The position numbers were made by a program, and so were the translations under genes. Shown here piece after piece: positions 36,197-59,137 of a stretch of 64,000 bases of DNA. The notes below the pieces were generated by a model. The model had not been told where the DNA came from. It saw only the letters and a list, made by a program, of their open reading frames with translations, and ran no database searches. The stretch lies in the NCBI GenBank assembly GCA_963702005.1, contig OY969696.1:96001-160000 (forward strand), written 5' to 3'. Numbering within the stretch: the first letter of the stretch is position 1; each line of letters starts with the position of its first letter. Source of the DNA: Candidatus Aminicenantes bacterium (GTDB lineage: Bacteria; Acidobacteriota; Aminicenantia; Aminicenantales; JAFGBC01).

Positions 36197-36494
36197 CTCA
36201 ACACTTCCTTATTTATTGTTTTAATAGAATTCAAATGGCATTAATCTTGCCATCGAAATTTTAACTCCCCCATTTTCCTTTTTCCCTTTTATCTCGAATT
36301 CATTACATCATAAGAAAAATCTGATGTCAATTCCGATGGTTACTTTGCGGCCTATGTTTCAAGTTATAATAATTTTTCATAAGAATTATAATTAGAATGA
36401 AAACTGAGCCTCTTTAAACGCAATAATAGCATCTTCTGCGCATACCCAATTTTAATCCCTCTTCTTAATTCGTTTTCTACCTCTGGGGATTCCC

Positions 36495-37157
36495 ATGAAA
36501 AAGAAGCTCTCCTCTTTCGATTCTGAGAAGGATGTTTGGTATTACCAGCCTAAGATTTACATAGATACGAAGAGCCTGACCTATTCTCTTTACGACGAGT
36601 CCCCCGAATTCCGGTCATTCCTGTCCCGCGACCTGTCGAGGAAACTTGTCGACGGGCTAGATTCTCTTCTTGAGAACGGGAATGACAAGAATAAGGGCAA
36701 ACTGAAGAAGAGAAACGGCCAGAACGGCTCGGACATGGGCGCGCTACTGAAGACGAACGGGAAGCTGAAGAAGCCGGTAATCAGCTTCTTTGCCGACAAG
36801 GCTAAGGTCCTTAAGGAAGAGATAGATAAAATCAACCAAGACGCGGAGGAGCGGAAAAGACTTCACAGAGAAACGAAGGATGAAATATGTGCCGATTCGA
36901 AAGAGATCAGAAGGCTGCTGCAGGAAATCTCGCTATATTCGCCGGGAACGAAGCACTCGATTGACTTGCGACGAATAGAGCTTGAACGGGAGATGCTCGG
37001 CCTACGGAAGGAATCGAGAATTGCGGGCCTTTCATTATGGAAGGATTCCGTAATGCTTCGCCACGAGCTGCGCGAAATCATTTTCGAGTATCAGGCGCTG
37101 AAAAGGATGGCGGAGCTGGTCGAGAACGGAGGCGGCAAGAATGGCGTTTCAGGGTGA
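36495..37157 (+). CDS. coiled-coil hypothetical protein, 220 aa
   Basis: Long charged heptad C-terminal half; GC-rich codon usage like the ATPase gene. Confidence 0.75.
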   Translation: MKKKLSSFDSEKDVWYYQPKIYIDTKSLTYSLYDESPEFRSFLSRDLSRKLVDGLDSLLENGNDKNKGKLKKRNGQNGSDMGALLKTNGKLKKPVISFFADKAKVLKEEIDKINQDAEERKRLHRETKDEICADSKEIRRLLQEISLYSPGTKHSIDLRRIELEREMLGLRKESRIAGLSLWKDSVMLRHELREIIFEYQALKRMAELVENGGGKNGVSG

Positions 37158-37215
37158 GTCCGCCGACCACGAGAATGTAACTTCATAAGCCTAGAAATAA
37201 GCAAACCTGGAAATT

Positions 37216-37590
37216 TCAAAAAGCCCTGTTCGGCTGGGCCAAGGTAACGAGCGAGTTCAGGGCTTCCTCTTTCTGATTGTGCATGAAAACGAAGCCGTAA
37301 TAGACGTAGATCGCATCGCCCCTGTTCTCCGTCCTCAGCGTCGCGGACTTAATACTCGAAAGTTCTTCCTTTCTGAGATAAAGGCTGATGTTCCTGAGGA
37401 GCTTCGAAGCATTAAGTATCTCCAGCCCCACGGCCCTTTTCATGTCGGCATCGAAGTCTATGATGAAATCTCCTATCTCGACGCTTCCCTTGGCCTTTTC
37501 GCTGCCCCTGTGCAGGAGCAGGATGTCATCTTCCACGTCATACGAGAATTGCGTTTCGGCTTTCATTTCCACCACATCCTTTTCTGCCAT
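37216..37590 (-). CDS. DUF2283 family protein (putative antitoxin)
   Basis: FSYDVEDDILLLHR....KGSVEIGDFIIDFD....AVGLEILNASKLL. Confidence 0.85.
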   Translation of the reverse strand: MAEKDVVEMKAETQFSYDVEDDILLLHRGSEKAKGSVEIGDFIIDFDADMKRAVGLEILNASKLLRNISLYLRKEELSSIKSATLRTENRGDAIYVYYGFVFMHNQKEEALNSLVTLAQPNRAF

Positions 37591-37880
37591 TTGTTTACTA
37601 TTTCATAGGCAGTCTTGACCTTTATCCTTTCGTTCAGAGTGATTATGAGGCCGAGCGTCCTGGCCCTGCTCAGCCTGAACCATAATTTATACTTGAATTC
37701 CGAGGGATTTAAAGATTCCTGCTCCGTCGCCCTGATCAGGTTTTTCGGGTTCATCAGGTTCTGCCTGATGACTTCTTCTTTTATGCCCCTGTAGGCGCGG
37801 TCCTGCGCTACATGGGACGATATGATTATTTTGTCCTCTCCAAAGCTTTTAAGCCACTCCCTCAGATTCTGGCGCTTCAT
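37563..37880 (-). CDS. putative RelE-fold/DUF4258-like toxin paired with DUF2283
   Basis: IIISSHV..DRAYRGI.EE.I...L...P...IKVKTAY; basic protein overlapping the DUF2283 start. Confidence 0.6.
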   Translation of the reverse strand: MKRQNLREWLKSFGEDKIIISSHVAQDRAYRGIKEEVIRQNLMNPKNLIRATEQESLNPSEFKYKLWFRLSRARTLGLIITLNERIKVKTAYEIVNKWQKRMWWK

Positions 37881-38025
37881 GCGAACCGATATGCCTATTT
37901 GGCCTGAGTTCATAAATGCTTTTTGACGAACCCCTGCGGCTCATCTACTCTCTGCATTCCATCATCCGCATATTCCGCCTTCTGCATCGGCCAGCCTCTT
38001 CATTAAGCTTTCCGTCGTTTCGTTA

Positions 38026-40059
38026 ATGGGCATGTCTTTTCAGGATGAGGTCGAGGCGCTTTTCCGCAAGCTGAAGCCTGTCCTGGGCAAGGAAATCGAC
38101 TCCCTCTGGCTGGCTTACCATACCCAGACCGACCCGCGTTCCCGGGCTGAGATCCTGGGCATCCTTTACTCCCTGGCCTCCCAATACCTCGACGAGACGT
38201 TTGACAAGCAGCTTCTTCTCTCGCTTCCGGACGCCGGCGATATCGCGGGCGACCACGAAATCGGCAAAGTCGTCTACGCCGGGCGCGAGCTGCATCCCTT
38301 CGGCCTGCGCGAAAACGAATGGCTCCGCCACATAGGTATTTTCGGGACGACCGGCTCGGGGAAGACCAACTGCGCCTTCGTCCTGCTCTCGAAACTGCTC
38401 AAAATGCGAAAACCCTTCCTGGTGTTCGACTGGAAGCGCAATTACCGCGACCTGCTCGCCCTTCCGGATTTTGCCGGGCTGAAGGTCTACACGATTGGCC
38501 GGGAAGAGTCGCCGCTTCTCTTCAATCCCCTGATTCCTCCGCCGGGGACGGGCGCCCAGACGTGGCTCAAGAAGCTCATCGAGGTCATGTGCCATGCCTA
38601 TTTCCTTGGGGAGGGAGTAGCATACCTGCTTCAGAAAGCGATTGACCAGGCCTACTCGGATTCAGGAGTCTACTACGAGCAGGCCGGCGCCTTTCCGACC
38701 TTCCGGGACGTGCTCAATATTCTGGAGAAAACGGAAGTCAAGGGCAGAAAAGCGCTTTGGATGGATTCGACGCTGCGAACCCTGGGCGTCCTCTGCTTCG
38801 GCGAATTCGGCCGCGTCCTGAACGCGGCGAAGCCATCGCCTCTCGCTTCCCTGCTTTCCGAGAACGCGGTTCTGGAGCTCGACAGCCTGACGAATTCCGA
38901 CAAGACCTTCTTCATCGAGGCGCTACTGCTGTGGATTCACCATTTCCGTCTTTCGCAGCCGGAGCGCGAAACCTTCAAGCATGCCATCCTGATAGAGGAG
39001 GCGCACCACATACTCCTGAGGAAGAAGCAGGAGGCCACTGGCAGCGAGGCGGTTACGGACGTCATCCTCCGAGAGATCCGAGAGCTCGGCGAGGCGATAA
39101 TCCTGATAGACCAGCATCCCTCGCTTATTTCGATTCCGGCGCTTGGCAATACGTATACGACTCTATGCTTCGGGCTGAAGCACAGGGCGGACATGTTCAC
39201 CATTTCCGAATCGCTTTTGCTGGCGAAAGACGAGGTCGACTTCCTGGGCCAGCTTGAGACCGGGACGGCGATTGTGAAGCTCCAGGGCCGCTATTTCAAG
39301 CCCTTCCTTGTGCGCATCCCTCTTTTTCAAATACGGAAAGGAATCGTATCCGATTCCGAAGTCAGAAGCCGGATGGCAGGAAATTTGGCTGAAAACGGGG
39401 TTGTCAGGCTTGAACGCGGCCTTCGCGGCATTGTCAGCTCTCTTGAAGGTATTGTTAATAAAGGGGGCGGACAGGTTATTCTGGAGGCAGACGAACGCCG
39501 CTTCCTGGAGGACATCGCAATCCATCCCATTTCAGGCGTGGTGGCGCGCTATACGAGGCTCGGAATGAACAGATACAGGGGCAACCAGATACAGAACAGG
39601 CTTCAAGACAATAAGCTGATTTCGTGGCGCCCCGTTTCAACGAGCTCCGGCCGGCTTAAGGTCCTGGTCCTCACGGACTCCGGGAAGAAGGCGATTCCTG
39701 ACGTCAGGGTCGAGAAGGTCTTCCAGAAGAACGAGTCCTGGGAGCATGCCGTCGCGAAGGCGAAGGTCGCGGACCACTACCGCGCGCTGGGATACAAGGT
39801 CACGCTGGAATACAAGCTTCCGGGCGGCCGGGCCGTGGACGTGGTCGCTGAGAAGGACGGGAAGCGCATCGCTATCGAAATTGAGACGGGGAAATCGGAT
39901 ACGATTTACAATATCAGAAAGGATCTGGAGGCGGGGTTTGAGGAGATTGTCGTAATCTGCTTTCGCAAAGAAAATAAAGAAAATATCCTTTCTGAATTGA
40001 CAAATCTTGGATTGAACAAAAGCGATAAAGTAAAGCTACTGGGAGTCGAAGATATTTGA
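38026..40059 (+). CDS. HerA/DUF87-like (FtsK-HerA/VirB4 superfamily) ATPase fused to a C-terminal PD-(D/E)xK nuclease domain
   Basis: HIGIFGTTGSGKT, LVFDWK, ILIEEAHH, LREIRELG..IILIDQHP; C-terminal EYKL...AVDVVAEKDGKRIAIEIETG. Confidence 0.88.
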   Translation: MGMSFQDEVEALFRKLKPVLGKEIDSLWLAYHTQTDPRSRAEILGILYSLASQYLDETFDKQLLLSLPDAGDIAGDHEIGKVVYAGRELHPFGLRENEWLRHIGIFGTTGSGKTNCAFVLLSKLLKMRKPFLVFDWKRNYRDLLALPDFAGLKVYTIGREESPLLFNPLIPPPGTGAQTWLKKLIEVMCHAYFLGEGVAYLLQKAIDQAYSDSGVYYEQAGAFPTFRDVLNILEKTEVKGRKALWMDSTLRTLGVLCFGEFGRVLNAAKPSPLASLLSENAVLELDSLTNSDKTFFIEALLLWIHHFRLSQPERETFKHAILIEEAHHILLRKKQEATGSEAVTDVILREIRELGEAIILIDQHPSLISIPALGNTYTTLCFGLKHRADMFTISESLLLAKDEVDFLGQLETGTAIVKLQGRYFKPFLVRIPLFQIRKGIVSDSEVRSRMAGNLAENGVVRLERGLRGIVSSLEGIVNKGGGQVILEADERRFLEDIAIHPISGVVARYTRLGMNRYRGNQIQNRLQDNKLISWRPVSTSSGRLKVLVLTDSGKKAIPDVRVEKVFQKNESWEHAVAKAKVADHYRALGYKVTLEYKLPGGRAVDVVAEKDGKRIAIEIETGKSDTIYNIRKDLEAGFEEIVVICFRKENKENILSELTNLGLNKSDKVKLLGVEDI

Positions 40060-40100: not shown

Positions 40101-41606
40101 CTAGCCTTCTTTATTTTTTCTTTCTTTTTCAATTTGAAATTGAACATCACAAAATGCCTTGCCAATTTCTCTGACTAAGTTCTGCATTGTAATGATTGTA
40201 ATCAATCTCTCCATTGTAGGTTTGGTCGCTAAAAGACAGGTCGTTATCTGATGCAAAGATATGACAGCATTCTTGGCAGGATCAGCCAAACCATAATTGC
40301 TGGGTCCTGCTAAAAGAACTTCTTGTAATGAATTGTTCTGAATTAATCCAAGTCTGAATTTAAGACTTTTTGAACCAGCATGTACATTAATACAAGCCAT
40401 TTTATAAAAAGGTCTCCACGTGTCCATTTTTATTGATTCTTCTATTTCTTTGAAATTCCTATCCCTCAAGATATTGCTGGGAACCCATCCGTAATCGCTA
40501 CAGAAATCTCTGCCATATTTAGCGCAGACGACATCTCTGCCTCTTTTCAATTCTTGAAATTGATTTCTTGTTAATGGCTTAAATCCTAATCTCTTGCAGT
40601 GTTTTTGGTATTCTTTCGCTTCCTTATAATTCTCGATAATTGTATGAGTTAGATATCTCTCTGCAATACTTCTCCCATGTTTACTTAGAAAAAATGAAAT
40701 AACTGCCAGCTCATGCAAACTTCTCCAACGAGCGAATGCTCCATCTGCCAAACCGCTCTTAAGGAGTGTCATTATCTCAAAGAATATTTGACACCCGCGA
40801 GCATGTATTCTGGTAAGAGCCTCAAAAAGAAAATCCTGATTTCTGGCTGCTTCTTCTCTATGTTTGTTATTGAATTCTTCTCCTGATTCTAAGGCCATCA
40901 CATAAAACATTTCTAACAAATCAACTGGCTTTTGCCATCTCTTCATCAATCGGTTTTCAAATCCTTCTTGATAACTTCTTCTCTCTGTTAACATTTTTGA
41001 ACTTGTCTTCTTAAGTTCGTTCAATAATACTTCCGCAGATTTGGGCAACGTTTTCGACATTATGTTATTTATCATTTTTGATATTTTCTTAGAATCAGGA
41101 ATTTCTTTGCCGGCACTAATTATTGCTTCAAGAATCAACGTACAAAACCAATCGTCAGAATTTCCATTAGTTTTCCCTCTCTTGGTAATATCACTTTTTA
41201 AATTATCAACGGTTTTTTTACATGAAGAAATGTCCATTACCCCTTCCAATTCCGATAACAATTTGTAACAGTTCTCATCAACAATCTTTAATTTATTTCT
41301 AAAGGCTTGATAAAATTCAGAATTGACTGCCCCTTTATTTGAACCAGTCCTAATAGTCTGGTTACACCTATCAAAAATATCTTTAAACTCTTTATTTATC
41401 TTTTTTAAGTCACTCTTTGATAAATCAAATTCTTTTATATTTTCTTCTGTAAGATTACGCTCAAAATTGCTAATGATATTGCTGTAAAAAAATCCTTCAA
41501 CAATGCTTACCGCTTCATTTTGAATTACCACTGATTTTGCGTATTTAGAGACCATCTCTTTAGATTGTTCAATCAGTTGCTCAAGTTTATCTAAAAATTC
41601 ATTCAT
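40101..41606 (-). CDS. DUF5677-like (HEPN-related) protein
   Basis: IMTLLKSGLADGAFARWRSLHEL...YGW...YKMACINVHA; AT-rich insert. Confidence 0.75.
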   Translation of the reverse strand: MNEFLDKLEQLIEQSKEMVSKYAKSVVIQNEAVSIVEGFFYSNIISNFERNLTEENIKEFDLSKSDLKKINKEFKDIFDRCNQTIRTGSNKGAVNSEFYQAFRNKLKIVDENCYKLLSELEGVMDISSCKKTVDNLKSDITKRGKTNGNSDDWFCTLILEAIISAGKEIPDSKKISKMINNIMSKTLPKSAEVLLNELKKTSSKMLTERRSYQEGFENRLMKRWQKPVDLLEMFYVMALESGEEFNNKHREEAARNQDFLFEALTRIHARGCQIFFEIMTLLKSGLADGAFARWRSLHELAVISFFLSKHGRSIAERYLTHTIIENYKEAKEYQKHCKRLGFKPLTRNQFQELKRGRDVVCAKYGRDFCSDYGWVPSNILRDRNFKEIEESIKMDTWRPFYKMACINVHAGSKSLKFRLGLIQNNSLQEVLLAGPSNYGLADPAKNAVISLHQITTCLLATKPTMERLITIITMQNLVREIGKAFCDVQFQIEKERKNKEG

Positions 41607-41772
41607 TTTTCCCTCATTAAGCTATCTGCTAATGAAACATAAAAGCTATTTCAAAAAGAATTCGCGTATTTCAACAATGCTGCTAATTTTGACGCATATC
41701 TTTTTGCTTCGCTGCGTAGAGCTAAAGTTATATTAAGCCTCTATCGAAAATTCTTTGTCGAAAATATTATTG

Positions 41773-42060
41773 TTATCTTGTAGAACGCTTTAAAATCTTT
41801 CCTTTCTCATTCATTACACCCACAGTGGTTCCTTCTGTTCTATCAAGAGCCTCGTTAAGAATATCATTTGGGACCCCAAGATATACCGGCTTTTTAAATC
41901 CCTGTAATTGCTTAATTCCTTCGGACAGTTTGTTTTTATTTATCTCAACTTCAACGGCGTATTTTGGAGTGTTTACGTCTGGACCTTCTGTGGGTTCATA
42001 TTTTGTTCCTCGTGCTTTGGCGATTTTTTCAGCGACCTTATCATGTTTGCTTTGAGACAT
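41773..42060 (-). CDS. small PD-(D/E)xK-like protein, 95 aa
   Basis: SKHD...GPDV....AVEVE...GIKQL; AAGGAGG RBS. Confidence 0.65.
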   Translation of the reverse strand: MSQSKHDKVAEKIAKARGTKYEPTEGPDVNTPKYAVEVEINKNKLSEGIKQLQGFKKPVYLGVPNDILNEALDRTEGTTVGVMNEKGKILKRSTR

Positions 42061-42231
42061 TGGTAACCTCCTTGCTTCTTATTATATAACGCGTTCAAGA
42101 ATTATCAAAAGCATATTCCGCATCAAATTATAGAATCTGGACTGGCCAAAGAAAAAGGAGCTAGACTAATAGAGTCTGTGTTATTGACTACAGAAACAGA
42201 AAACAAGCAATAAAATATGTTAAAAATAAAC

Positions 42232-43044
42232 TCAATATGTTCTTTGATCAGTAATTTCTTGTTCGGCCTCGATCCCATTTGAGGCCAAAAAAACTTTTAA
42301 TTCTTCGTATCGTTCTCTAATTGATTTAACTCTTATTATTTTAGGACTGAAAAATAAACTCAATTCGCTAATTTTATCATTTCTTGTTTCCGACTTGTAA
42401 AATAGCGGTGCAAGCAATCGTAATAAGTTTGATGCGGTATCCAGATTTTGTTCCTCTTGTCTTGAAAAAGCATTCACAGCGAATCTCAAAGAACCAATTA
42501 CTATATCAACGAGCGATCCAAAATGGGATTGTCCAATAGCACTATAGTGATAACCTATAATATGATTTAATCTTAAGGTTCTCGAATAGGGTAGTCCCCT
42601 AACGCCGGTAGATAGTTTTTCCCTCAGATGGGCATCAATTTGCTTGTCGCTGAAGCGATCAATTAGCATCAATCCATGAGAGCAGAATCTTTTCAATAGA
42701 CAATCAAAATGATATGCAACTCTATTTATTTCGTTTTTTCTAGCATCCTCGGGGCTCGTGGCTATTTTATGGTGAATCAGAGAAACTAGAATAACACATC
42801 CAGTCTCCACTGCCTTCTGAACTATTCTTTGTTTAAGCTCAACAAATTCTTCATGTTTAAGTTTATTGGGGCGTGGATTGAACTTGAGTAGAAAATCATT
42901 GGGAATACATTTATCCAGTCGAAGTTTGTATATTTCGTCAGATAGAGTCTTTGCCTTCGCTGAGTCAATAACGACTCCGCCATATATAAAGAAAACATTT
43001 TCTGCTGGTCTTAGATTTGTCTCATCAGAATACATTAGATACAT
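42232..43044 (-). CDS. DUF3800 family (RNase H-like fold) protein
   Basis: MYLMYSDET...FFIYGGVVI...GLMLIDR...SLVDIVIG. Confidence 0.8.
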   Translation of the reverse strand: MYLMYSDETNLRPAENVFFIYGGVVIDSAKAKTLSDEIYKLRLDKCIPNDFLLKFNPRPNKLKHEEFVELKQRIVQKAVETGCVILVSLIHHKIATSPEDARKNEINRVAYHFDCLLKRFCSHGLMLIDRFSDKQIDAHLREKLSTGVRGLPYSRTLRLNHIIGYHYSAIGQSHFGSLVDIVIGSLRFAVNAFSRQEEQNLDTASNLLRLLAPLFYKSETRNDKISELSLFFSPKIIRVKSIRERYEELKVFLASNGIEAEQEITDQRTY

Positions 43045-51092: not shown

Positions 51093-51160
51093 TGTTCTTA
51101 TCTTCTTAATCCGCACCCCCCTTCCGAAACCCTTTTCTTTTCTCCTCTTTACTTCCTCTG

Positions 51161-53477: not shown

Positions 53478-53909
53478 CTAACAAATAAAGCTACCTTTTA
53501 AAGGCGCCTTCACTCCAATATTTTTTATAGAGACTGTATCGTCATGAGGGAAGGAATCCTTACATTCATCATTGCAAATTGGTTTAGTATGGTAGATTAA
53601 GCAGCATTCGACTTTTTGCCTTCTTGAAGTCCCAAGTTCACACTTGGCTACTTTTAAAAGCGTGTAATTTGTGCAATTTTTTTCCCAACATGACCACTTC
53701 TCGTGTCCTTCGATTCTTGTTCGGACTTTGTCGGCTTCGCCAATATAAAGTAGCTTATAAGATGATGCATCCCATTTATTAGGTTCGGTAGACCTCTTCC
53801 CACAGATAATCATATAAATTCCTTCTCCATCTGGGACATCAGATGGTATTGCGTCTTTTTTTATTTCCCATACGCCATCCCAATTTAAGGTTACGCTTAT
53901 TGTTTCCAT
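53478..53909 (-). CDS. GIY-YIG nuclease family protein
   Basis: GIYMII...LLYIGEA..VRTRIEGH...VE..LI...P..N. Confidence 0.85.
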   Translation of the reverse strand: METISVTLNWDGVWEIKKDAIPSDVPDGEGIYMIICGKRSTEPNKWDASSYKLLYIGEADKVRTRIEGHEKWSCWEKNCTNYTLLKVAKCELGTSRRQKVECCLIYHTKPICNDECKDSFPHDDTVSIKNIGVKAPLKGSFIC

Positions 53910-54025
53910 ATCTGTATCCCTTTTTATTATATATATAACATTTTAAACCTTTTTCTAGAACCTTAAAAGCAAAATCCGCAATCTTGCCGGGTCAATTTCT
54001 AAAATACCCTCCTCAAACCTTGAAC

Positions 54026-54175
54026 ATGATTCCTGAAAACCCGCGAAGGACATACGCTTTCACCTGTCCCGGGTGTCTGACGACCTTCCATCTTTACGCC
54101 TGGGAAACCGAGGAAGGCGTTCCCAAGTGCAATTACTGCATGATCCCTCTCGAAAGGATTAAGGAGCGGAGGTGA
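54026..54175 (+). CDS. zinc-ribbon microprotein
   Basis: FTCPGC...PKCNYC; first gene of a coupled GC-rich operon. Confidence 0.65.
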   Translation: MIPENPRRTYAFTCPGCLTTFHLYAWETEEGVPKCNYCMIPLERIKERR

Positions 54176-54178
54176 AGC

Positions 54179-54637
54179 ATGAACCTGGAAGAGATGGAAC
54201 ATGAGAAGCAGGTCGAACGCCTGCGAACGGTCCTGAGGTCGGAGAAGGGCACGCTGCCGGGCTTCCTGGCTCTTTTCGCGCTGCGCCATCACGCGATAAT
54301 GGGCCACAAGCCGGAGCTTTCCCTCAGGCCGAGCCTGCGCTGGTATCTGGGCCAGCTCGCCAAGGAATACATCCGCCGCTATTACGCCGAGGCAAAGGAA
54401 GCGATGGAGAGTTTCGCGGCGATCGGCCTGGTGGAGGCCAGGGACGGAGAGCAGGAAGGCCAGAAGGACTTCGTCCTCAGGGAGGCGTTGGTCCCGGCGC
54501 TGCGCGAGGTCCTCGAAGAGGTCTTCGGCAAAGAGACGGTCGAGGACACGGTCGCCAAGGCGAAGTTCTACAAGGAGCCGGCCTACGGGCCGGAGCGCGG
54601 CCGTGCCGGCGCCAAGGCGGGGAGGTCGGAAGAATGA
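54179..54637 (+). CDS. hypothetical protein, possible winged helix
   Basis: GGAGGTGA RBS; GC3-rich codons; ATGA overlap with the next gene. Confidence 0.7.
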   Translation: MNLEEMEHEKQVERLRTVLRSEKGTLPGFLALFALRHHAIMGHKPELSLRPSLRWYLGQLAKEYIRRYYAEAKEAMESFAAIGLVEARDGEQEGQKDFVLREALVPALREVLEEVFGKETVEDTVAKAKFYKEPAYGPERGRAGAKAGRSEE

Positions 54638-55065
54638 AAGGCGAAATCGAGAGAATCTGGAAGAACAAGACCGGCGACGGCCGGCTCTACAACGTGCTCC
54701 AGATAGGCGGAGAACGGTATTCCCTGTGGGAGGAGAACTACCTCGACAAGCTGCACGAGGGCCAGACGCTGGAATTCGACTTCAGTGAGGCGGGCGACTA
54801 CAAGAACATCTGCAAAATCTACGAGCCGGCGGGAACCGGGAAGCAGGCGGGCAAAGAGGAGCAGCCGCCGGAGACGGCAGGGAACGGCCAAAACCAGAAG
54901 GCGCGCCAGATCGTGAGGATGAGCTGCCTGCGCTCGGCCAGCCAGATCCTGGGCGGGTCGAGAATCCCGGCAGGCGAGCGCGCCGGCAAGACGATAGAAA
55001 TCGCGAAGAAGTTCGAGAAATACATCGGCGACGACAGCATCCCAGGACCCGGCGAGGACGACTGA
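54634..55065 (+). CDS. putative single-stranded DNA-binding protein (OB-like N-terminus, acidic tail)
   Basis: Beta-rich N-terminus (YNVLQIGGERYSLW...GDYKNI), QIVRMSCL helix and PGEDD acidic end. Confidence 0.5.
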   Translation: MKGEIERIWKNKTGDGRLYNVLQIGGERYSLWEENYLDKLHEGQTLEFDFSEAGDYKNICKIYEPAGTGKQAGKEEQPPETAGNGQNQKARQIVRMSCLRSASQILGGSRIPAGERAGKTIEIAKKFEKYIGDDSIPGPGEDD

Positions 55066-55112
55066 AAACAGGAGGGGGAATCCGGGCTGGTCAAGACCAT
55101 CCGGGCGGAAGC

Positions 55113-55436
55113 ATGCAGTCCAGACGGGATAGCGGTCAATCCGAATTCCTGAGAGCCCTCGGACGCTACCACAGACCGAGAACGGGCGAAACAATCATCA
55201 CGAGGCATGGAGAGGCGAAAATCTCGCTTATCCTGTCTTACGCGGGCGTCGTCGGAGAGATGGAGGCGTGCGGCATGTCCGGCAAAGACATCGAAAAATT
55301 CAAGGCGCGAGTCGAGCATTTCTTCGGCAACAAGAGGAGCAGGTATTTCGAGTGCGAGCTGGCTTATACGGACGGAGAAACGGAGCGCATCGACTGGAGC
55401 GAATACCTGGCGATGAAGAACGAGGGAAAAAGGTGA
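55113..55436 (+). CDS. hypothetical protein, 107 aa
   Basis: Co-oriented with the operon; GC3-rich. Confidence 0.55.
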   Translation: MQSRRDSGQSEFLRALGRYHRPRTGETIITRHGEAKISLILSYAGVVGEMEACGMSGKDIEKFKARVEHFFGNKRSRYFECELAYTDGETERIDWSEYLAMKNEGKR

Positions 55437-55727
55437 TCTTACGGCGACGGAAAGAAGCGCGGTCCTGGGCGGGCAGGGGTTCAGCGTAAGAACCAAGAAG
55501 ATCTATCAGAGGGACCTGACCTCAGACTGCTGGTCCGTCCAGGTCTGGGGCCTCGGCTACTGCTCGGGCTTCGGGGATTACGGCCAGATGTGCGAGTTCC
55601 TGGCCACGGACGAATGCGGCGGGCAGGTGATACGCAAGCGCATTCTGTCCGGCGGCTTCCCGGTTTCCGGCCTCCCCGACGCCCCATCAGAGCGGCAAAA
55701 AGGATGATCCACAAAAAAGGGATGCTC

Positions 55728-55970
55728 ATGAAAGGGAAAATCTACGCGCTGGTAAAGAACTTCGCATGGACAAACCATGATGTCGAGTTATTTAGAACGG
55801 CCAAAGAGGCCGAACTGGCTTTCAAACGCTATACCGGCATCGCTTTCAGTAAGCAATACCTTTGCCAGGACGATGAGGAATACAACGAGAAGTTTTCCGA
55901 GACGAAAATCTATGAACTGGCTTTGCCGGATTTTCTTGCGTTCACCAAAGGCAAACCGAGGAGGCGATGA
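55728..55970 (+). CDS. stand-alone paralog of the N-terminal domain of the RadC-like protein 56157..56864
   Basis: KIYALVKNF...NHDVEL...F..YTG......Y...D...Y.EKFSET.IY.L.LP aligns with the next gene. Confidence 0.7.
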   Translation: MKGKIYALVKNFAWTNHDVELFRTAKEAELAFKRYTGIAFSKQYLCQDDEEYNEKFSETKIYELALPDFLAFTKGKPRRR

Positions 55971-56156
55971 ATCTGTACGAGAAATGTCCGCTGGAACCAA
56001 GAAGAAGGTCAAGGCGCGAGCTCAAGGACTCGCATTTCGACGGCTATAAATACAAGGGCTATCGGGTCAGGCGGGCGATTCTCCTGGGCAAATTCCCCGT
56101 CTCCGGGCTTCCGGAGGCCGGATCGGGCGCCGGGCCGTAGGGAGGCTTTCGTTTCC

Positions 56157-56864
56157 ATGAAAAAGTCCAAAATCTTCGTCCTGGTGAAGAATTTCGAGGG
56201 CGTCAACCACGAGGCCGAGCTCTGCCCGAGCTTCGGGGAGGCCAGGAAGCGCTTCCGCCAATACACGGGCTTCGGCTACAACGACAAATACTGCGACCCC
56301 GAAAGCGACCGCTACGAAGAGAAGTTCTCGGAGACGCGGATATACGGGCTGGAGCTCCCTCCTTACCTGAGCGTCTCGCCGGGCCGGGGAAGAAGCCGGC
56401 GCCTGAAGGACTCGGGCTTCGACGGCTTCGAATACAAGGGCTACAGGGTCAAGACGAAGCTCGTGGTCGAGGGCCACAGCAAATACAAGCCGCTGAAGCT
56501 CGGAAGCTCCCATGAGGTCTACGCCGCCTTCCGCAGCCTTTCGGACAGCGACCGGGAGCGCTTCTACTCGGTCCTGCTCGACTGCAAGAACGCCGTCATC
56601 GGCGTCGACATGGTGAGCCAGGGCTCGGGCAACTCTGCGGCCGTCGTGCCCATGGAAGTGTTCAAGCCGGCCCTGCTCGCCTCGGCGGTGGCGGTCGTCT
56701 TCGTGCATTCCCACCCTTCGGGCGATCCGGAACCGTCGTTCCCAGACATCGCGCTCACCCGCGACCTCAAGCAGGCCGGCGAATTGCTCGGGGTCAAGGT
56801 CCTGGACCACGTCATCATCGGCAGGGAAAAGTTCTACAGCTTTGCGGACAAGGGTGGCATATGA
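56157..56864 (+). CDS. RadC-like JAB/MPN domain protein with an unusual N-terminal domain
   Basis: ERFYSVLLD, PMEVFKPA, VHSHPSGDPEPS..D, LDHVIIG. Confidence 0.9.
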   Translation: MKKSKIFVLVKNFEGVNHEAELCPSFGEARKRFRQYTGFGYNDKYCDPESDRYEEKFSETRIYGLELPPYLSVSPGRGRSRRLKDSGFDGFEYKGYRVKTKLVVEGHSKYKPLKLGSSHEVYAAFRSLSDSDRERFYSVLLDCKNAVIGVDMVSQGSGNSAAVVPMEVFKPALLASAVAVVFVHSHPSGDPEPSFPDIALTRDLKQAGELLGVKVLDHVIIGREKFYSFADKGGI

Positions 56865-57082
56865 AGAAACCCGGCGAGCGCATGCACGAAGTGAGGGTCC
56901 GGCTCGATCGGCTGCGCCGCTACCGAGGCTGCTCGGACCTGGTCGAGACCTACTGCTGCTCGGCGACTCCCTGCTATTACGTCGACTTTCCGGCGCTCGG
57001 CTACGGCGGCTACTTCCAGACGGCCGATGTCGAAATCAGGAGGCGGGAGCATCGAAGCGATAAAGAAGGAATTGTCGGTTGA
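56861..57082 (+). CDS. hypothetical protein, 73 aa
   Basis: ATGA overlap with the radC-like gene. Confidence 0.55.
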   Translation: MKKPGERMHEVRVRLDRLRRYRGCSDLVETYCCSATPCYYVDFPALGYGGYFQTADVEIRRREHRSDKEGIVG

Positions 57083-57374
57083 AGAAACGATGAAGCGCTA
57101 TCCCAGGCTGACCGCGCACGTGATAGCCGAGTCTCTCGGCTACGCCACGCCTTCGCGGGCGGCAGCCATCGTCAGGGACGCAAAAGAGCGCCGGCCGAAT
57201 TATTGCGAATGGATCGACGCCTGCTACGGCTGCGACCCGCTGCCGGCGGTGAAGAACGCAATAAGGAACAGGCACAATCACAGCGGCTTCATGGCCGAAT
57301 ACAAGCTCGCGCTGGCGTTGGTGCGCCGCGCAATCGACACGGGCGACGAGCCGGTCTTCGCGAGCTGGTTTTAA
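57027..57374 (+). CDS. hypothetical protein (true start probably 57072 or 57090)
   Basis: Co-oriented; GC3-rich. Confidence 0.6.
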   Translation: MSKSGGGSIEAIKKELSVEETMKRYPRLTAHVIAESLGYATPSRAAAIVRDAKERRPNYCEWIDACYGCDPLPAVKNAIRNRHNHSGFMAEYKLALALVRRAIDTGDEPVFASWF

Positions 57375-57393
57375 GCGGGGTTGAGGTGGGAAA

Positions 57394-57684
57394 GTGACGA
57401 AATTCGATACGGACGGGGAGAATCTTTACATCGACGGCAAGAAGGTCCTGCGCGGTTGGGAGTCGTTCTCGGGCTGGTACTGGTTCGCTACCGAGAAAGT
57501 CCGGAAGCAGTTGAGCGATTTCGGCAACGGAAAGGGAGTCCCCGATACCATCTATTTCGGGCTGGTCCAGGGCTTCGAGGAGGAATGGGGCTATTTCAGC
57601 CAAGCAGAAATCGAGAGCCTGAAGCCTAAAACTTGGGAGATCCCGAAGGAGAATCTGCCTTATGCGGGAAGGAGAAGACGATAG
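57394..57684 (+). CDS. DUF2958-like small protein
   Basis: GWYWFATE...IYFGLVQGFEEEWGYFS..EIESL. Confidence 0.7.
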   Translation: MTKFDTDGENLYIDGKKVLRGWESFSGWYWFATEKVRKQLSDFGNGKGVPDTIYFGLVQGFEEEWGYFSQAEIESLKPKTWEIPKENLPYAGRRRR

Positions 57685-57687
57685 CAG

Positions 57688-58122
57688 ATGAAATCCACTA
57701 AATTCATGTCGGCGGAAGAAAAGGGGAAAGTGCTTAAAGACTGGCAGCGCTTCATAGCAAGTGATTTCAGCAGGGCATATTTCACCCATTCTCTCTATAA
57801 CCACCTGATTCAACATTGCTCTTTCATCGCGCACTACAACGAGCAGGGTTTTTATGGTTCTTATTTCGAAGATCCGGGGAAGACGCTGAAATTCCTGAAA
57901 CAGTTTGACGGGGATTATGGCTGCAAAAGCGTCGAGTATGGGTCAGGATACTGGCTAACGAACGAGGAGTATAGGGACATTAACTCTGCCATGATAAATG
58001 CCCTCCAGCCGCATAAGAAAACGATATATTCAGGACTGAAGCAAAAAACAAGGGAGACAAAATTACGGCAGATGGAGAAATTGAGAATTGAAATAGAGGA
58101 GTTAGATCGACGAGGTGACTGA
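57688..58122 (+). CDS. hypothetical protein of mobile-element type
   Basis: FTHSLYNHLIQHCSFIAHYN..GFY..YF motif; within the operon. Confidence 0.65.
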   Translation: MKSTKFMSAEEKGKVLKDWQRFIASDFSRAYFTHSLYNHLIQHCSFIAHYNEQGFYGSYFEDPGKTLKFLKQFDGDYGCKSVEYGSGYWLTNEEYRDINSAMINALQPHKKTIYSGLKQKTRETKLRQMEKLRIEIEELDRRGD

Positions 58123-58321
58123 AATGGGAACGCACACCGTCCATACGGATTGCGTTAAATGCAGGGGAAAAGATTCTTTAATCTATACGTTTGACACGAG
58201 AAATCCAATTTCGGGCGAGGCCTTCTGCCTTAACTGCGGCCGTTATTACAGCACTATTGAGAAGAAGCTGGCCAAAAAAGAATTGACAGAATTGAGAAAA
58301 GAATACGGATGGGGTGACTGA
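58115..58321 (+). CDS. zinc-ribbon small protein
   Basis: CVKC...CLNCG. Confidence 0.65.
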   Translation: MTEMGTHTVHTDCVKCRGKDSLIYTFDTRNPISGEAFCLNCGRYYSTIEKKLAKKELTELRKEYGWGD

Positions 58322-58664
58322 GACGAGCTATTACCTTACCGTCGCCGACCAGGGCCTTAAAGCCAAAAAGGACATCTCTGACGAACTCAAAAAGCTATAC
58401 GATGAAAACAAGGTTTATCTCTATTGGCACTGGGAAAACGGTTTCGTTGGCTTAGACGATGGATATTTCAGATGGGACGAGGATTTCTTCCAGGACCTGC
58501 TTGCGCTAAAATCCATTGGCGTCAGGGGAGACATGACGGCTCAAGGCGAAGAAGGCGAGCACTATAAGTATGTCATAAATAACAGAGCCGTGAAGGAATA
58601 TTACGGCACAGTCAGGTTTCCAAAAAAGCCCGCCAGGGTAATCAAAGGCAATATGGACCTATAG
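58314..58664 (+). CDS. hypothetical protein, 116 aa
   Basis: Overlapping GTG start; GEEGE motif. Confidence 0.6.
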   Translation: MTETSYYLTVADQGLKAKKDISDELKKLYDENKVYLYWHWENGFVGLDDGYFRWDEDFFQDLLALKSIGVRGDMTAQGEEGEHYKYVINNRAVKEYYGTVRFPKKPARVIKGNMDL

Positions 58665-59137
58665 TAATTTGATTTTAAGGGTGATTGATTGGACCCTGAT
58701 ATTTGCTGATACAACAAGGAGTCAAGGTGATAGAAACCTTCGCACGGAAATCAACCGCTAACAATCCATCTGGACCATTAGAATTCTACTTGAAAAACCG
58801 GTTCAAAATAGAACGCAATAATTCTGATTTTCAACTTGTACGCTTAGAGTTAAAATGAGAAACGCTATTTTTTTATGAGATTTCCTAACACAAAGGAGAT
58901 TATAACGAAAACTGTGTAAACCTCATTGAATAGGTAAAATGAATCAAGGAGGTTCCATTGACACTTGACCGGGACGAACTGAAAAAACTGCTCAAGAAAA
59001 CGGCTGGCCAAGCTGAAAGGTTCCCGATGGCTCGGGATACTCGATACCTAGCGCATCATATGGACGAAATCAAGGGCCGGAGCGAGGCAACCTTTTTCGA
59101 GTTACAATCGTCTTCTAAATAGAAAGGAAGGTTTGTT

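What the first reader, a model, noticed from the sequence alone, without database searches (positions are those of the whole stretch)
36400..58700. Archaeal-type mobile element backbone embedded in bacterial sequence
Seen: Orc1/Cdc6, a HerA-like ATPase-nuclease, a DUF2283 pair, an AbrB-like gene and an integrase with LGW(x)nYVH plus a CxxC-CxxC tail, flanked on both sides by bacterial-type exported proteins (VWA and propellers left, PA-gluzincin right). Known: Orc1/Cdc6 is the archaeo-eukaryotic initiator and is common on archaeal integrative elements, and Zn-ribbon integrases of this form are typical of archaea. Inference: a cross-domain transfer, or a little-described bacterial element family that replicates with Cdc6.
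Basis: partly seen in the sequence, partly recalled or inferred. Interest (0 to 1): 0.8.

Follow-up and report, generated by a model that had tools for sequence, protein, structure and literature searches.

The report
Cdc6–HerA–integrase mobile element in bacterium
A bacterial chromosome carries two diverged copies of a mobile-element core built from an archaeal-style Orc1/Cdc6 protein, a HerA-type DNA pump with a nuclease-like tail and a zinc-ribbon integrase, and the same core recurs in many environmental bacterial contigs.

Summary
The host is a closed 4.31 Mb bacterial chromosome with a bacterial rRNA operon, DnaA-DnaN and RpoB, so an archaeal contig is excluded.

The region is not a single stray transfer. 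A second collinear copy, 42-88% identical at protein level, lies at 3.11-3.13 Mb of the same chromosome. The same gene order recurs in 80 metagenome loci and one Eubacteriales MAG contig: p220, HerA-wHTH-nuclease, cargo, Cdc6, AbrB-like, tyrosine integrase, then an OB-fold/RadC arm. Two of those loci have plainly bacterial flanks.

None of 40 order-level relatives or 400 phylum-level genomes carries this Cdc6. Named relatives are mixed: several bacterial phyla, plus Asgard, DPANN and other archaeal MAGs.

A rare GTTTAAAC box marks the Cdc6 and AbrB promoters across the family.

The whole window lies inside a 78 kb island at tRNA-Val, so the "bacterial flanks" are island cargo.

Best reading (0.5): an integrative element family with archaeal-type core genes living in bacteria. 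Replication by Cdc6 is inferred, not shown.

Main rival (0.25): a HerA/FtsK-Orc/Cdc6 "capture" defence module of the kind described in 2024.

I class it as a new variant of a known kind.

The parts
33247..33864 (+). Small tyrosine recombinase (205 aa, catalytic domain only), an optional left-end gene of the module.
   Evidence: Pfam Phage_integrase E 4.6e-27. It matches tyrosine-type invertase models over nearly their whole length. It is 72% identical to the copy-B gene. It lies directly upstream of p220 in L016 and L049. A conserved promoter-like stretch with ATTTAAA lies upstream in all 4.
34107..36196 (-). Cargo insertion between the small recombinase and p220: a periplasmic-binding-protein-like gene and a 387-aa gene with no family match.
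   Evidence: GC 0.36-0.39. Absent from copy B and from L016 and L049 at this place. Pfam Peripla_BP_4 E 3.8e-19.
36400..37157 (+). Conserved leader of about 100 nt plus p220, a 220-aa coiled-coil-looking protein whose gene is tightly followed or overlapped by the ATPase gene in most members.
   Evidence: No family in Pfam, NCBIfam, PHROGs or PADLOC. 79% identical to copy B. Found in 15 of 81 loci. The upstream conservation starts about 100 nt before the ATG.
37216..37913 (-). Two-gene insertion: a DUF2283 protein and a partner with a weak DUF4258 hit. Probably a toxin-antitoxin-like cassette.
   Evidence: DUF2283 E 8.9e-6. DUF4258 E 0.079. Absent from copy B, where p220 and the ATPase gene overlap. 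Present at the same place in L050 at 78-87% identity.
38026..40059 (+). HerA/FtsK-superfamily ATPase (residues about 75-440) fused to a winged-helix-like domain (about 488-556) and a PD-(D/E)xK-like C-terminal domain (about 572-673).
   Evidence: (CedD model 93.7 bits, far below its cut-off of 600). 76% identical to copy B. Found in 36 of 81 loci.
40101..43875 (-). Variable cargo: a DUF5677 protein of 501 aa and four small genes.
   Evidence: GC 0.34-0.42. DUF5677 E 2.2e-26 and phrog_27456 E 1.1e-70. Not shared with copy B. DUF5677 homologues sit at the same slot in L047 and L070.
44081..45124 (+). Orc1/Cdc6-family AAA+ protein with lid and C-terminal winged-helix region.
   Evidence: 59% identical to copy B. 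494 relatives at E<=0.001 in the word-indexed search.
45206..45283 (.). Two dyads GTTTAAAC-N4-GTTTAAAC (four boxes) just downstream of Cdc6.
   Evidence: The window has 5 boxes against 0.93 expected, with 0 of 100 shuffles reaching 5. The same dyad sits at -54 of 8 of 14 AbrB-like ORFs in other members.
45483..48542 (+). Variable cargo: a methyltransferase-like gene, a small minus-strand ORF and a DUF4062-TPR protein.
   Evidence: TIGR04371 E 2.7e-21. DUF4062 E 6.1e-6. GC 0.39-0.44. Absent from copy B. The DUF4062-TPR protein is also found downstream of Cdc6 in L028 and L030.
48604..48853 (+). Degenerate dyad (GTATAAAC-N4-ATTTAAAC) and promoter, then the AbrB/MazE-type small regulator (probable start 48659).
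   Evidence: Homologues occur in 13 of 81 loci, usually between Cdc6 and the integrase.
48891..51495 (+). A 733-aa protein with a NERD nuclease-related domain, and a 99-aa protein. Shared with copy B but with few other members.
   Evidence: NERD E 1.4e-4. 63% and 88% identical to the copy-B genes. NERD homologues appear only in L047 and L058.
51713..51952 (+). Small HTH-like ORF abutting the integrase gene (weak call).
   Evidence: HTH_Crp_2 E 8.2e-4, below the Pfam cut-off. No homologue in copy B.
51934..53172 (-). Tyrosine integrase of 412 aa with a C-terminal CxxC...CxxC zinc ribbon.
   Evidence: (best model is archaeal XerA, 134.6 bits, below its cut-off of 220). It is only 42% identical to the copy-B integrase, which lies on the other strand. 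Found in 23 of 81 loci.
53478..53909 (-). 143-aa ORF with only weak GIY-YIG-like hits.
   Evidence: GIY-YIG domains at E 0.05-0.15. 80% identical homologue next to the integrase in L060.
53984..57684 (+). Conserved right arm: nine small genes including an OB-fold protein (54634-55065) and a RadC-like JAB protein (56157-56864).
   Evidence: 46-88% identical and collinear with copy B. Partly present in L028, L041, L045 and L063. RadC E 4.3e-37. The OB-fold model has pLDDT 75.3. Its matches to SSB, RPA, LEF-3 and cold-shock folds are weak, best E 7e-3 and none at <=0.001.
57688..58664 (+). Three small genes private to this copy, one a CxxC...CxxC protein.
   Evidence: No homologue in copy B or elsewhere in the genome. 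No family apart from a weak Zn_ribbon_Elf1 hit, E 0.0059.
60894..60961 (+). 68-nt remnant copy of the 3' end of the last right-arm gene (57609-57676).
   Evidence: 88% identical. A 26-aa tblastn match.
62925..63022 (+). 98-nt remnant matching a right-arm stretch that only copy B retains.
   Evidence: 80% identical to genome 3,133,952-3,134,050.

Best explanation
Window 33.2-58.7 kb, with its strict core at 36.4-57.7 kb, is one member of a family of integrative mobile elements. The conserved backbone is p220, a HerA/FtsK-type ATPase fused to a winged helix and a nuclease-like domain, an Orc1/Cdc6 protein, a small AbrB-type regulator, a zinc-ribbon tyrosine integrase, and an arm of small genes that includes an OB-fold protein and RadC. 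Variable, low-GC cargo sits in fixed slots between the backbone genes.

Proposed working, all inferred. The integrase inserts and excises the element. The AbrB-type protein and/or the Cdc6 winged helix act at the shared GTTTAAAC boxes in the Cdc6 and AbrB promoters and so set the switch between quiescence and activity. Cdc6 either marks an element origin for replication of the excised circle or acts as the activating switch. The ATPase-wHTH-nuclease, with p220, recognises, cuts and pumps element DNA for transfer, partition or resolution. The OB-fold/RadC arm handles single-stranded DNA on entry.

The family lives in several bacterial phyla and has relatives in archaeal MAGs. This genome acquired it twice, each time within a tRNA-linked island.
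For: Shown:
- Two collinear copies lie in one closed bacterial chromosome, with backbone identities of 42-88% and different cargo.
- Compact members carry p220, ATPase, Cdc6 and integrase within about 5 kb (L076), or the whole backbone within about 10 kb (L045).
- The Cdc6 family was found in 0 of 40 order-level relatives and 0 of 400 phylum-level genomes searched.
- Backbone GC is 0.45-0.64 and cargo GC 0.34-0.44, against 0.604 for the genome.
- The integrase is swapped and inverted between the two copies.
- Flanks are bacterial in L044 (TolC, RND adaptor) and L081 (GspE/F, PilM, histidine kinase).
- A shared cis-element exists. GTTTAAAC lies within 120 nt upstream of Cdc6 in 23 of 71 loci (40 of 71 with one mismatch or fewer), and as a dyad at exactly -54 of 8 of 14 AbrB ORFs. 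The loci hold 76 boxes in 648,804 bases against about 10 expected. The genome has only 11 boxes, 5 of them in the window and 1 lying 84 nt upstream of the second Cdc6.
- Cdc6 has intact ATPase motifs and aligns end to end with a solved archaeal Orc1/Cdc6.
- The chromosome has its own DnaA.
- In the Cdc6 quick tree the element family forms one clade (SH-aLRT 93), separate from haloarchaeal plasmid and virus Orc1 (99). The two copies of this genome are not sisters; copy B pairs with L049 (100).
Against: - No att sites for the module itself were found in this genome or in L045.
- No excised or empty-site form could be looked for, because no public run holds the stretch.
- No replicative helicase, primase or polymerase was seen in the backbone. 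The genome has no convincing MCM: the best Pfam MCM hit is 35.6 bits, and the control genomes show that this model also hits ordinary bacteria. How an Orc1/Cdc6 would start replication in a bacterium is therefore unexplained.
- No conjugation or capsid genes were found.
- Both copies lie inside larger islands that have their own terminal integrase at a tRNA gene. The module may now move only as a passenger.
- HerA/FtsK plus Orc/Cdc6 plus wHTH plus nuclease is the domain set that a 2024 paper reads as a defence system.
- Labels on MAG proteins are unreliable for mobile DNA.
Confidence: 0.5

Rival explanations
1. The p220, HerA-wHTH-nuclease and Cdc6 genes form an anti-invader 'HerA/FtsK capture' defence system. 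Cdc6 would localise the complex on DNA, the ATPase would reel in foreign DNA, and the nuclease would cut it. The integrase and the small-gene arm would merely be the vehicle, or neighbours in a defence island.
For: PMC10853773 (passages read) describes mobile neighbourhoods that combine Orc/CDC6, HerA/FtsK, wHTH and an active REase, and proposes this mechanism. PMC12839542 (passages read) repeats it. The ATPase matches PADLOC HerA, DndH and mad8 models at E 2.4e-12 to 1e-5, and its fold matches DndH-C and the SIR2/HerA defence ATPases. The cargo slots hold defence-like genes (NERD, DUF4062-TPR, toxin-antitoxin-like pair, methyltransferase). Other members carry type I R-M, Cas4-like and ProA/Hhe-like genes.
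Against: The published class has an inactive REase 'invariably inserted' between the AAA+ core and the wHTH of the Orc/CDC6 protein. Here Cdc6 is 347 aa and aligns end to end with canonical archaeal Orc1/Cdc6, with no such insert. ATPase and Cdc6 are split by 0-6.5 kb of changing cargo, which is unusual for one operon-encoded machine. Cdc6 stays linked to the integrase even in members without the ATPase (L077, L081, L083). Cdc6 also shares a promoter box with the AbrB-type regulator, which looks like element-level regulation. No PADLOC model matched Cdc6 beyond a weak mad8 hit at E 1.3e-4. The paper's supplementary data could not be read, so this exact family may or may not be listed there.
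Confidence: 0.25
2. The region is a mobile element, but Cdc6 is not a replication initiator. It would be a damage- or stress-activated transcription switch that turns on the anti-repressor and integrase, as Orf8 does in haloarchaeal virus SNJ2 and as Orc1-2 does in Sulfolobales.
For: PMC10123103 (abstract read) reports an Orc1/Cdc6 homologue of a temperate archaeal virus that controls integrase expression through a small repressor module. According to that paper's section headings, a toxin-antitoxin pair lies within the same orf4-orf8 region. SNJ2 Orf8 is among the 9 phage-collection hits, at 30.7% identity. Here Cdc6 lies upstream of a small regulator and the integrase, and the Cdc6 and regulator promoters share the GTTTAAAC box. 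No helicase partner is present.
Against: The regulator here is AbrB-type, not the wHTH of SNJ2. No homologue of SNJ2 Orf7 was sought. In the quick tree SNJ2 Orf8 falls in the haloarchaeal group, not with this family. The boxes could equally be origin-recognition sites.
Confidence: 0.3
3. The region is a decayed, immobile remnant kept only as a passenger of the larger tRNA-Val island, with no present activity of its own.
For: The whole window lies between tRNA-Val and a 73-nt, 90% repeat of its 3' part. No module-level att was found. Right-arm fragments at 60.9 and 62.9 kb show past rearrangement. In L028 the ATPase is truncated right next to a tRNA-Val.
Against: All backbone ORFs are intact in both copies, with catalytic motifs conserved. 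The backbone is under enough constraint to keep its order across members only 50% identical.
Confidence: 0.12
4. The region is an integrated virus (provirus) whose ATPase packages the genome.
For: FtsK/HerA ATPases package DNA in membrane-containing icosahedral viruses (PMC4158269 and PMC6563490, passages read). There is a weak hit to a terminase PHROG over the P-loop only. The look-alikes of the OB-fold gene in the ESM Atlas are phage hypothetical proteins, score 0.94.
Against: No capsid, portal, tail or lysis family was found in 30 proteins scanned against PHROGs. A scan of the viral-contig collection gave 4 distant matches only, at 19-38% identity. At 677 aa with a wHTH and a nuclease-like domain, the ATPase is unlike the short packaging ATPases (that comparison is recalled, not tested).
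Confidence: 0.04
5. The region is an assembly chimera, or archaeal DNA mis-joined to a bacterial genome.
For: The island's composition differs from the genome's (0.45 against 0.60 GC). Reads could not be examined.
Against: The assembly is a single closed contig. A second collinear but diverged copy lies 3 Mb away. The island is bounded by a tRNA gene and its repeat. Host-family paralogues are interleaved in the island.
Confidence: 0.02

Closest known systems
HerA/FtsK-Orc/CDC6 mobile gene neighbourhoods ('HerA/FtsK capture systems'), Nucleic Acids Res 2024, PMC10853773 (passages read)
   Same: An Orc/CDC6-clade AAA+ protein is coupled with a HerA/FtsK ATPase, a wHTH and a restriction-endonuclease-fold domain. 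The association is mobile and patchily distributed, and found in bacteria.
   Different: The published class has an inactive REase inserted inside the Orc/CDC6 protein; here Cdc6 is canonical in length and alignment. The main text does not contain the words 'integrase' or 'tyrosine recombinase'. Here the pair is part of a larger conserved backbone with an integrase, an AbrB-type regulator, an OB-fold/RadC arm and cargo slots. The supplementary data were not readable.
Archaeal integrated elements encoding Orc1/Cdc6, HerA-like ATPases and integrases (dark-matter islands, PMC4158269; thaumarchaeal integrated elements, PMC6563490; passages read)
   Same: The repertoire is the same. In archaeal dark-matter islands the commonest families include integrases, the HerA-like helicase arCOG00280 and the Orc/Cdc6 family arCOG00467. 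Thaumarchaeal integrative-conjugative and cryptic elements carry Cdc6/Orc1 as the presumed replication protein.
   Different: The host here is a bacterium with DnaA and no MCM. Family members have bacterial flanks. No one-to-one synteny with a described archaeal element was tested.
SNJ2-type Orc1/Cdc6-centred lysogeny switch of haloarchaeal pleolipoviruses (PMC10123103, abstract and section list read)
   Same: An Orc1/Cdc6 homologue on an integrating element lies close to a small DNA-binding regulator and a tyrosine integrase. A toxin-antitoxin pair lies in the same region.
   Different: The regulator fold is different (AbrB-type). There are no virion genes. The host is bacterial. SNJ2 Orf8 is only 30.7% identical and falls outside the family clade.
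Haloarchaeal plasmid and virus Orc1/Cdc6 genes
   Same: These are the only homologues seen on sequenced plasmids and phages. There are 453 plasmid records, and all 30 best rows and all 40 spread rows are archaeal. There are 9 haloarchaeal viruses. The two plasmid records opened have a PD-(D/E)xK nuclease gene right after Cdc6.
   Different: Identity is 23-33%, and they form a separate clade in the quick tree. Those replicons are archaeal.
Actinomycete integrative and conjugative elements (integrase, replication initiator, single FtsK-like TraB translocase).
   Same: The minimal logic of integrase, one initiator and one FtsK/HerA-superfamily DNA pump would be a working analogy.
   Different: There is no homology shown to TraB. 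The Pfam FtsK_SpoIIIE hit is E 0.0077, below its cut-off. The initiator is of a different family. On sequenced plasmids, 39 records (19 of them Streptomyces) match only the ATPase half, at identities shown of 26-31%, and none covers 80% of the protein.

Membership tests
Orc1/Cdc6 family (NCBIfam TIGR02928) | Whole-protein score above the curated cut-off | tested here: met
   186.2 bits against a cut-off of 181.3, a narrow pass. The equivalog models for cellular ORC1-type proteins are not reached: 143.6 against 354, and 129 against 501.
Orc1/Cdc6 family (NCBIfam TIGR02928) | Intact AAA+ motifs: Walker A, Walker B, sensor and arginine residues | tested here: met
   G55, G58, T59, G60, K61, T62, D133, E134, R174, R178 and R228 are invariant in 30 relatives. 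They align with the same motifs of 2qby_A and 2v1u_A.
Orc1/Cdc6 family (NCBIfam TIGR02928) | C-terminal winged-helix DNA-binding domain | tested here: inconclusive
   The alignment to 2qby_A runs to residue 330 and to 2v1u_A to residue 339. Pfam Cdc6_C scores only 19 bits against a cut-off of 25.1. The protein was not folded.
Orc1/Cdc6 family (NCBIfam TIGR02928) | Origin binding and helicase loading | not testable with these tools
   No origin was mapped. The GTTTAAAC boxes are candidates only.
HerA/FtsK-Orc/CDC6 capture systems (PMC10853773) | Orc/CDC6 ATPase, HerA/FtsK ATPase and wHTH in one neighbourhood | tested here: met
   The wHTH is read from the secondary-structure pattern of the model at residues 488-556 and from JGI 'MarR family' names on homologues.
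HerA/FtsK-Orc/CDC6 capture systems (PMC10853773) | An active restriction-endonuclease-fold domain | tested here: inconclusive
   The acidic motif E595/D605/E618/E620 is conserved. CoiA_nuc hits at E 0.025. There was no PDB sequence hit, and no domain-level fold search was run.
HerA/FtsK-Orc/CDC6 capture systems (PMC10853773) | Inactive REase inserted between the AAA+ core and the C-terminal wHTH of the Orc/CDC6 protein ('invariably') | tested here: not met
   The protein is 347 aa. Its alignment to 386-387-aa archaeal Orc1/Cdc6 chains is gap-poor and end to end.
Tyrosine recombinase / integrase | Catalytic domain with R...HxxR...Y | tested here: met
   Phage_integrase E 5e-23. The sequence shows ...SGCRIGE..., HLFRHSRAT and VYVH.
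Archaeal XerA (NF040815) | Score above the curated cut-off | tested here: not met
   134.6 bits against a cut-off of 220. It is the best-scoring model but not an equivalog.
Integrative element delimited by att repeats | Direct repeats at both ends of the module | tested here: not met
   None was found for the 25 kb module. Repeats were found only for the enclosing island: the tRNA-Val 3' part repeated at genome 167,426-167,498.
Conjugative element (type IV secretion) | Relaxase, VirB4/VirD4 and mating-pair genes | tested here: not met
   Only sub-threshold TraG/TrwB P-loop hits on the ATPase. No relaxase or T4SS family was found in the 38 proteins scanned.
Provirus | Capsid, portal, tail or lysis genes | tested here: not met
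   None among the 30 proteins scanned against PHROGs.

The most novel reading that the evidence does not exclude
A family of mobile elements replicates in bacteria, which have DnaA and no MCM, from an origin defined by an archaeo-eukaryotic-type Orc1/Cdc6. Cdc6 would hand the origin either to the host's bacterial helicase or to the element's own hexameric HerA-type ATPase. The same element family would move between Asgard or DPANN archaea and several bacterial phyla.
Probability: 0.15. Interest if true: 0.85.

Novelty: new variant of a known kind. Interest (0 to 1): 0.6.

Why it matters
Orc1/Cdc6 is the hallmark initiator of archaeal and eukaryotic replication. Bacterial copies are annotated in databases but hardly studied.

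This case offers a tractable setting: a closed bacterial genome with two intact, diverged copies, a defined backbone, a candidate operator or origin box, and dozens of natural variants.

Three questions become testable. Can an Orc-type protein start replication in a bacterial cell, and with which helicase? Is the recurrent HerA-Cdc6 pairing a defence device or the engine of a mobile element? How freely do such elements cross the archaea-bacteria divide?

The fixed cargo slots also make the family a source of candidate defence genes.

Tried and rejected
- att search: BLAST with short words between the left and right zones of both copies, and k-mer matching around the left junction, gave only chance-level hits. 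The same held for the compact member L045. ATTTAAA as an end marker did not hold up.
- Split-integrase idea (small recombinase as the C-terminal half of an SSV-type split gene): rejected. The ORF has its own conserved promoter and start in 4 of 4 members, and stops lie 0-10 codons upstream.
- Reads: no public run holds more than 0.06 of the sampled words of 31-38 kb.
- Empty-site search in relatives: the left flank is syntenic in G001-G003 only up to about genome 89.6 kb. The right side (180-200 kb) has no synteny with them. No simple empty site could therefore be defined.
- Whole-contig search of the long metagenome contigs was not possible, as they are not held.
- The first genome-contig scan used a single protein and found only 2 loci.
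- Complex prediction of the ATPase with p220 gave no verdict, score 0.00. This is neither for nor against binding.
- ESM Atlas for p220: best score 0.75, no lead.
- A PDB sequence search with the ATPase C-terminus found nothing.
- tRNA and Rfam scans of the window found nothing.
- Literature searches for a description of bacterial Cdc6-integrase elements found none beyond the two papers on capture systems. Subscription journals and supplements are not covered.

Full report
**What is there**

- An Orc1/Cdc6-family protein lies at 44081-45124 (+). NCBIfam TIGR02928 scores 186.2 bits against a cut-off of 181.3.
- A 677-aa HerA/FtsK-superfamily ATPase lies at 38026-40059 (+).
- A DUF2283 gene lies at 37216-37590 (-). 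It overlaps a partner at 37563-37913 that gives only a weak DUF4258 hit.
- An AbrB/MazE-type small gene lies at 48602-48853 (+).
- A 412-aa tyrosine integrase lies at 51934-53172 (-). It has the LGW...YVH stretch and a CxxC...CxxC tail.

Cdc6 aligns from residue 8 to 330 with a solved archaeal Orc1/Cdc6 (2qby_A, E 2.5e-27). It keeps all AAA+ motifs.

The ATPase model (pLDDT 78.8) matches HerA, the DndH C-domain, SIR2/HerA, VirB4 and TrwB. After residue 485 the model shows a winged-helix-like unit and then an alpha/beta domain. That domain carries an invariant E595/D605/E618/E620 motif. Calling it a nuclease is an inference: the only family hit is CoiA_nuc at E 0.025, and a PDB sequence search found nothing.

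**The host is a bacterium**

- The window is bases 96,001-160,000 of a single 4,309,361-base contig.
- That contig has a bacterial 16S-tRNA-tRNA-23S operon, DnaA (550 bits) next to DnaN and RpoB.
- Genome GC is 0.604, the window's is 0.46.
- There is no convincing MCM. The best hit is 35.6 bits with a model that also hits ordinary bacteria.

**A second copy and a family**

BLAST of the window against its own genome found a collinear second copy at about 3,109,194-3,134,415. The table lists the shared genes in order.

| Shared gene | Protein identity between copies |
|---|---|
| 205-aa recombinase (33247-33864) | 72% |
| p220 | 79% |
| ATPase | 76% |
| Cdc6 | 59% |
| 733-aa NERD-domain protein | 63% |
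| 99-aa protein | 88% |
| Integrase (opposite strand) | 42% |
| Nine small genes at 53984-57684, including RadC | 46-86% |

Three stretches are not shared:
- 34.1-36.2 kb;
- the DUF2283 cassette, which in copy B is absent so that p220 and the ATPase gene overlap;
- 40.1-43.9 kb and 45.5-48.5 kb.

These unshared stretches have GC 0.34-0.50. Backbone genes have GC 0.45-0.64.

A profile scan of metagenome contigs gave 345 relatives, of which 80 loci were kept. One Eubacteriales MAG contig came from the genome collection. BLASTP of the window's 38 proteins against ORFs of these 81 loci shows the same order again and again: p220, ATPase, variable cargo, Cdc6, AbrB-like, integrase, then the small-gene arm.

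| Backbone gene | Loci with a homologue (of 81) |
|---|---|
| Cdc6 | 78 |
| ATPase | 36 |
| Integrase | 23 |
| p220 | 15 |
| AbrB-like | 13 |
| OB-fold gene | 9 |

Compact members hold the four core genes in about 5 kb (L076), or the whole backbone in about 10 kb (L045). A sub-group (L077, L081, L083) has Cdc6 and the integrase but no ATPase within 10 kb. The DUF2283 cassette sits at the same place in L050.

**Where the family lives**

- The family was found in none of the 40 order-level relatives searched with the protein.
- It was found in none of the 400 phylum-level genomes searched with a 30-sequence profile at E<=1e-20. That search scored only a few candidates per genome.
- L044 has TolC and RND-adaptor neighbours. 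L081 has GspE/GspF/PilM and a histidine kinase directly beside Cdc6.

Names given by sources are mixed:

| Protein | Bacterial labels | Archaeal labels |
|---|---|---|
| Cdc6 | Aminicenantes/Aminicenantales (4 clusters) | Helarchaeota (1) |
| ATPase | Aminicenantes (2); Thermodesulfobacteriota (1, on a 1.0 Mb contig) | Lokiarchaeia (1, on a 64 kb contig) |
| Integrase | Pseudomonadota (1, 69% identity) | Aenigmarchaeota (4), Nitrososphaerales (1), Thermoplasmatales (1), all at 45-53% |

On sequenced plasmids, Cdc6 homologues (453 records, all under 60% identity) were archaeal in all 30 best and all 40 spread rows shown. Among phages there were only 9 haloarchaeal viruses. The viral-contig scan gave only 4 distant matches. 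The ATPase's full architecture is on no sequenced plasmid: 39 records match, and none covers 80% of the protein.

A quick maximum-likelihood tree was built with 73 rows. I used every second full-length representative and dropped the rest. The careful search did not finish, the root is at the midpoint, and no cellular archaeal Orc1 is included. Its main results are:
- All context-bearing members fall in one clade (SH-aLRT 93), apart from the haloarchaeal plasmid and virus proteins (99).
- The Helarchaeota-labelled protein is sister to L044, whose flanks are bacterial.
- The two copies of this genome are not sisters. Copy B pairs with L049 (100), so the genome acquired the element twice.

**A shared cis-element**

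GTTTAAAC is rare. The genome has 11 copies. The window has 5, against 0.93 expected, and 0 of 100 shuffles reach 5.

- Four of the window's boxes form two dyads (GTTTAAAC-N4-GTTTAAAC) at 45,206-45,283, just after Cdc6.
- Across the family, an exact box lies within 120 nt upstream of Cdc6 in 23 of 71 loci with enough upstream sequence (40 of 71 with one mismatch or fewer). The offsets cluster near -78 and -37.
- The dyad lies at exactly -54 of 8 of 14 AbrB-like ORFs, overlapping a promoter-like -35/-10.
- The window's own AbrB gene has a degenerate dyad at the same offset.
- Copy B has a box 84 nt upstream of its Cdc6.

Whether these are operators or origin-recognition sites cannot be told from sequence.

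**The larger setting**

- Just left of the window, tRNA-Val(CAC) lies at genome 89,457-89,531. It abuts a 385-aa integrase.
- The 3' part of this tRNA is repeated at 167,426-167,498 (73 nt, 90%). It is repeated again at about 172.2, 175.2, 177.2 and 198.3 kb.
- The whole window therefore lies inside a 78 kb island, window coordinates -6,515 to 71,498, which heads a tandem array at tRNA-Val.
- The second copy lies in a 52 kb stretch bounded by a 16-nt repeat (E about 0.01-0.02). One copy of that repeat is inside tRNA-Leu(TAA).
- Both islands also share a left module on the other strand. It comprises an integrase, a RemA-like protein, small genes and a second ATPase of the same length, 24-28% identical to the main one. 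This module was not found next to the Cdc6 module in the metagenome loci.
- In L028 and L030 a tRNA-Val(CAC), 72 of 75 bases identical to this genome's, lies directly beside a truncated ATPase.
- Synteny with relatives stops at about 89.6 kb on the left. It does not resume by 200 kb.

**How it probably works**

The linkage of a recombinase with a fixed backbone, cargo slots, integrase swapping, patchy distribution and double acquisition all point to an integrative mobile element (confidence 0.5). The roles within it are inferred.

- The integrase would handle insertion and excision.
- The AbrB-type protein and the GTTTAAAC boxes would handle control.
- Cdc6 would act as initiator or as switch.
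- The ATPase-wHTH-nuclease with p220 would process or pump DNA.
- The arm would handle single-stranded DNA. Its OB-fold protein (model pLDDT 75.3; best fold matches are SSB, RPA, LEF-3 and cold-shock proteins at E 7e-3 to 7e-2, none at <=0.001) and RadC support this only weakly.

Against an autonomous replicon: there is no helicase, primase or polymerase gene in the backbone, no module-level att was found, and no excised form could be sought.

**Rivals**

1. Defence module. A 2024 paper (PMC10853773, passages read) and a 2026 follow-up (PMC12839542) describe mobile neighbourhoods that join Orc/CDC6, HerA/FtsK, wHTH and REase domains, and read them as anti-invader 'capture systems'. The domain set here is the same. 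However, the defining inactive REase insert in the Orc protein is absent. The two genes are separated by changing cargo. Cdc6 stays with the integrase when the ATPase is missing. I give this 0.25.
2. Cdc6 as switch. The SNJ2 precedent (PMC10123103, abstract read) makes a regulatory role for Cdc6 plausible (0.3). This is compatible with the element reading.
3. Remnant (0.12), provirus (0.04) and chimera (0.02) are less likely, for the reasons given in their entries.

**Novelty**

Cdc6-bearing integrated elements are well known in archaea. The HerA-Orc/Cdc6 pairing in bacteria has been noted.

I did not find in print the whole backbone with integrase, AbrB-type regulator, shared box and OB-fold/RadC arm, nor its spread in bacterial contigs with archaeal-labelled relatives. 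Six searches were run. Supplements and subscription journals were not covered. I therefore class it as a new variant of a known kind.

Noticed in passing
outside the window: genome 89,457-167,498 (window -6,543 to 71,498), and further repeats at genome about 172.2, 175.2, 177.2 and 198.3 kb: tRNA-Val(CAC) abuts a 385-aa integrase. Five direct repeats of the tRNA's 3' part lie downstream. This looks like a tandem array of integrated elements, the first of which (78 kb) contains the whole window.
   Followed up: partly
outside the window: genome 89,488-95,618 (L097:11488-17618) and genome 3,091,053-3,098,327: A second conserved module heads both islands. It comprises an integrase, a RemA-like protein, small genes and a 675-aa ATPase of the same family, which is split into 367- and 306-aa ORFs in island A. 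The two islands' versions are 30-65% identical. The ATPase is 24-28% identical to the main ATPase.
   Followed up: partly
window 60995-63772: Low-GC pair (0.33-0.35) on the minus strand. One gene is a UvrD-like helicase matching PADLOC GajB models (E 9.6e-27). The other is a MutY/HhH-GPD-like protein matching the PADLOC 'Type II nicking endonuclease' model (E 2.1e-47). Fragments of the element's right arm lie on both sides of the helicase gene.
   Followed up: no
window 4797-7445: A radical SAM/SPASM enzyme lies next to a beta-propeller protein in the lowest-GC part of the window (0.34-0.37). Further propeller genes lie at 15087-16133 and 26114-27256.
   Followed up: no
window 24949-27399, 27856-29902 and 23308-24753: Near-identical paralogous stretches lie elsewhere in the chromosome: 94% at 564,112, 92% at 1,828,723 and 86% at 4,148,969. 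Island genes therefore belong to recently duplicated families.
   Followed up: no
window 10070-10362 / 12494-12786 and 18671-18865 / 31348-31541: Internal direct repeats of 293 nt (85%) and 195 nt (93%) occur within the window.
   Followed up: no
L099:6656-6768 and L099:13305-13418 (genome about 186.7 and 193.3 kb): A repeat of about 113 nt has more than 30 copies at 88-95% identity spread over many contigs of the same-genus genome G001. It looks like a miniature repeat element.
   Followed up: no
L101 and L102 (haloarchaeal plasmids): In both plasmid records opened, the Cdc6/Cdc18 gene closest to the window's is followed directly by a gene annotated as PD-(D/E)XK nuclease family protein.
   Followed up: no
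L028:52-126 and L030:53-127: A tRNA-Val(CAC), 72 of 75 bases identical to the host's, lies directly upstream of a truncated ATPase gene of the same element family.
   Followed up: partly
L077:15811-16674 and L083:8999-9859: In the members without the ATPase, a Cas4-like nuclease gene (E 1.5e-12 and 5.3e-14, both below the model's cut-off) follows the OB-fold gene. L083 then carries a 1734-aa ProA/Hhe-like helicase.
   Followed up: no
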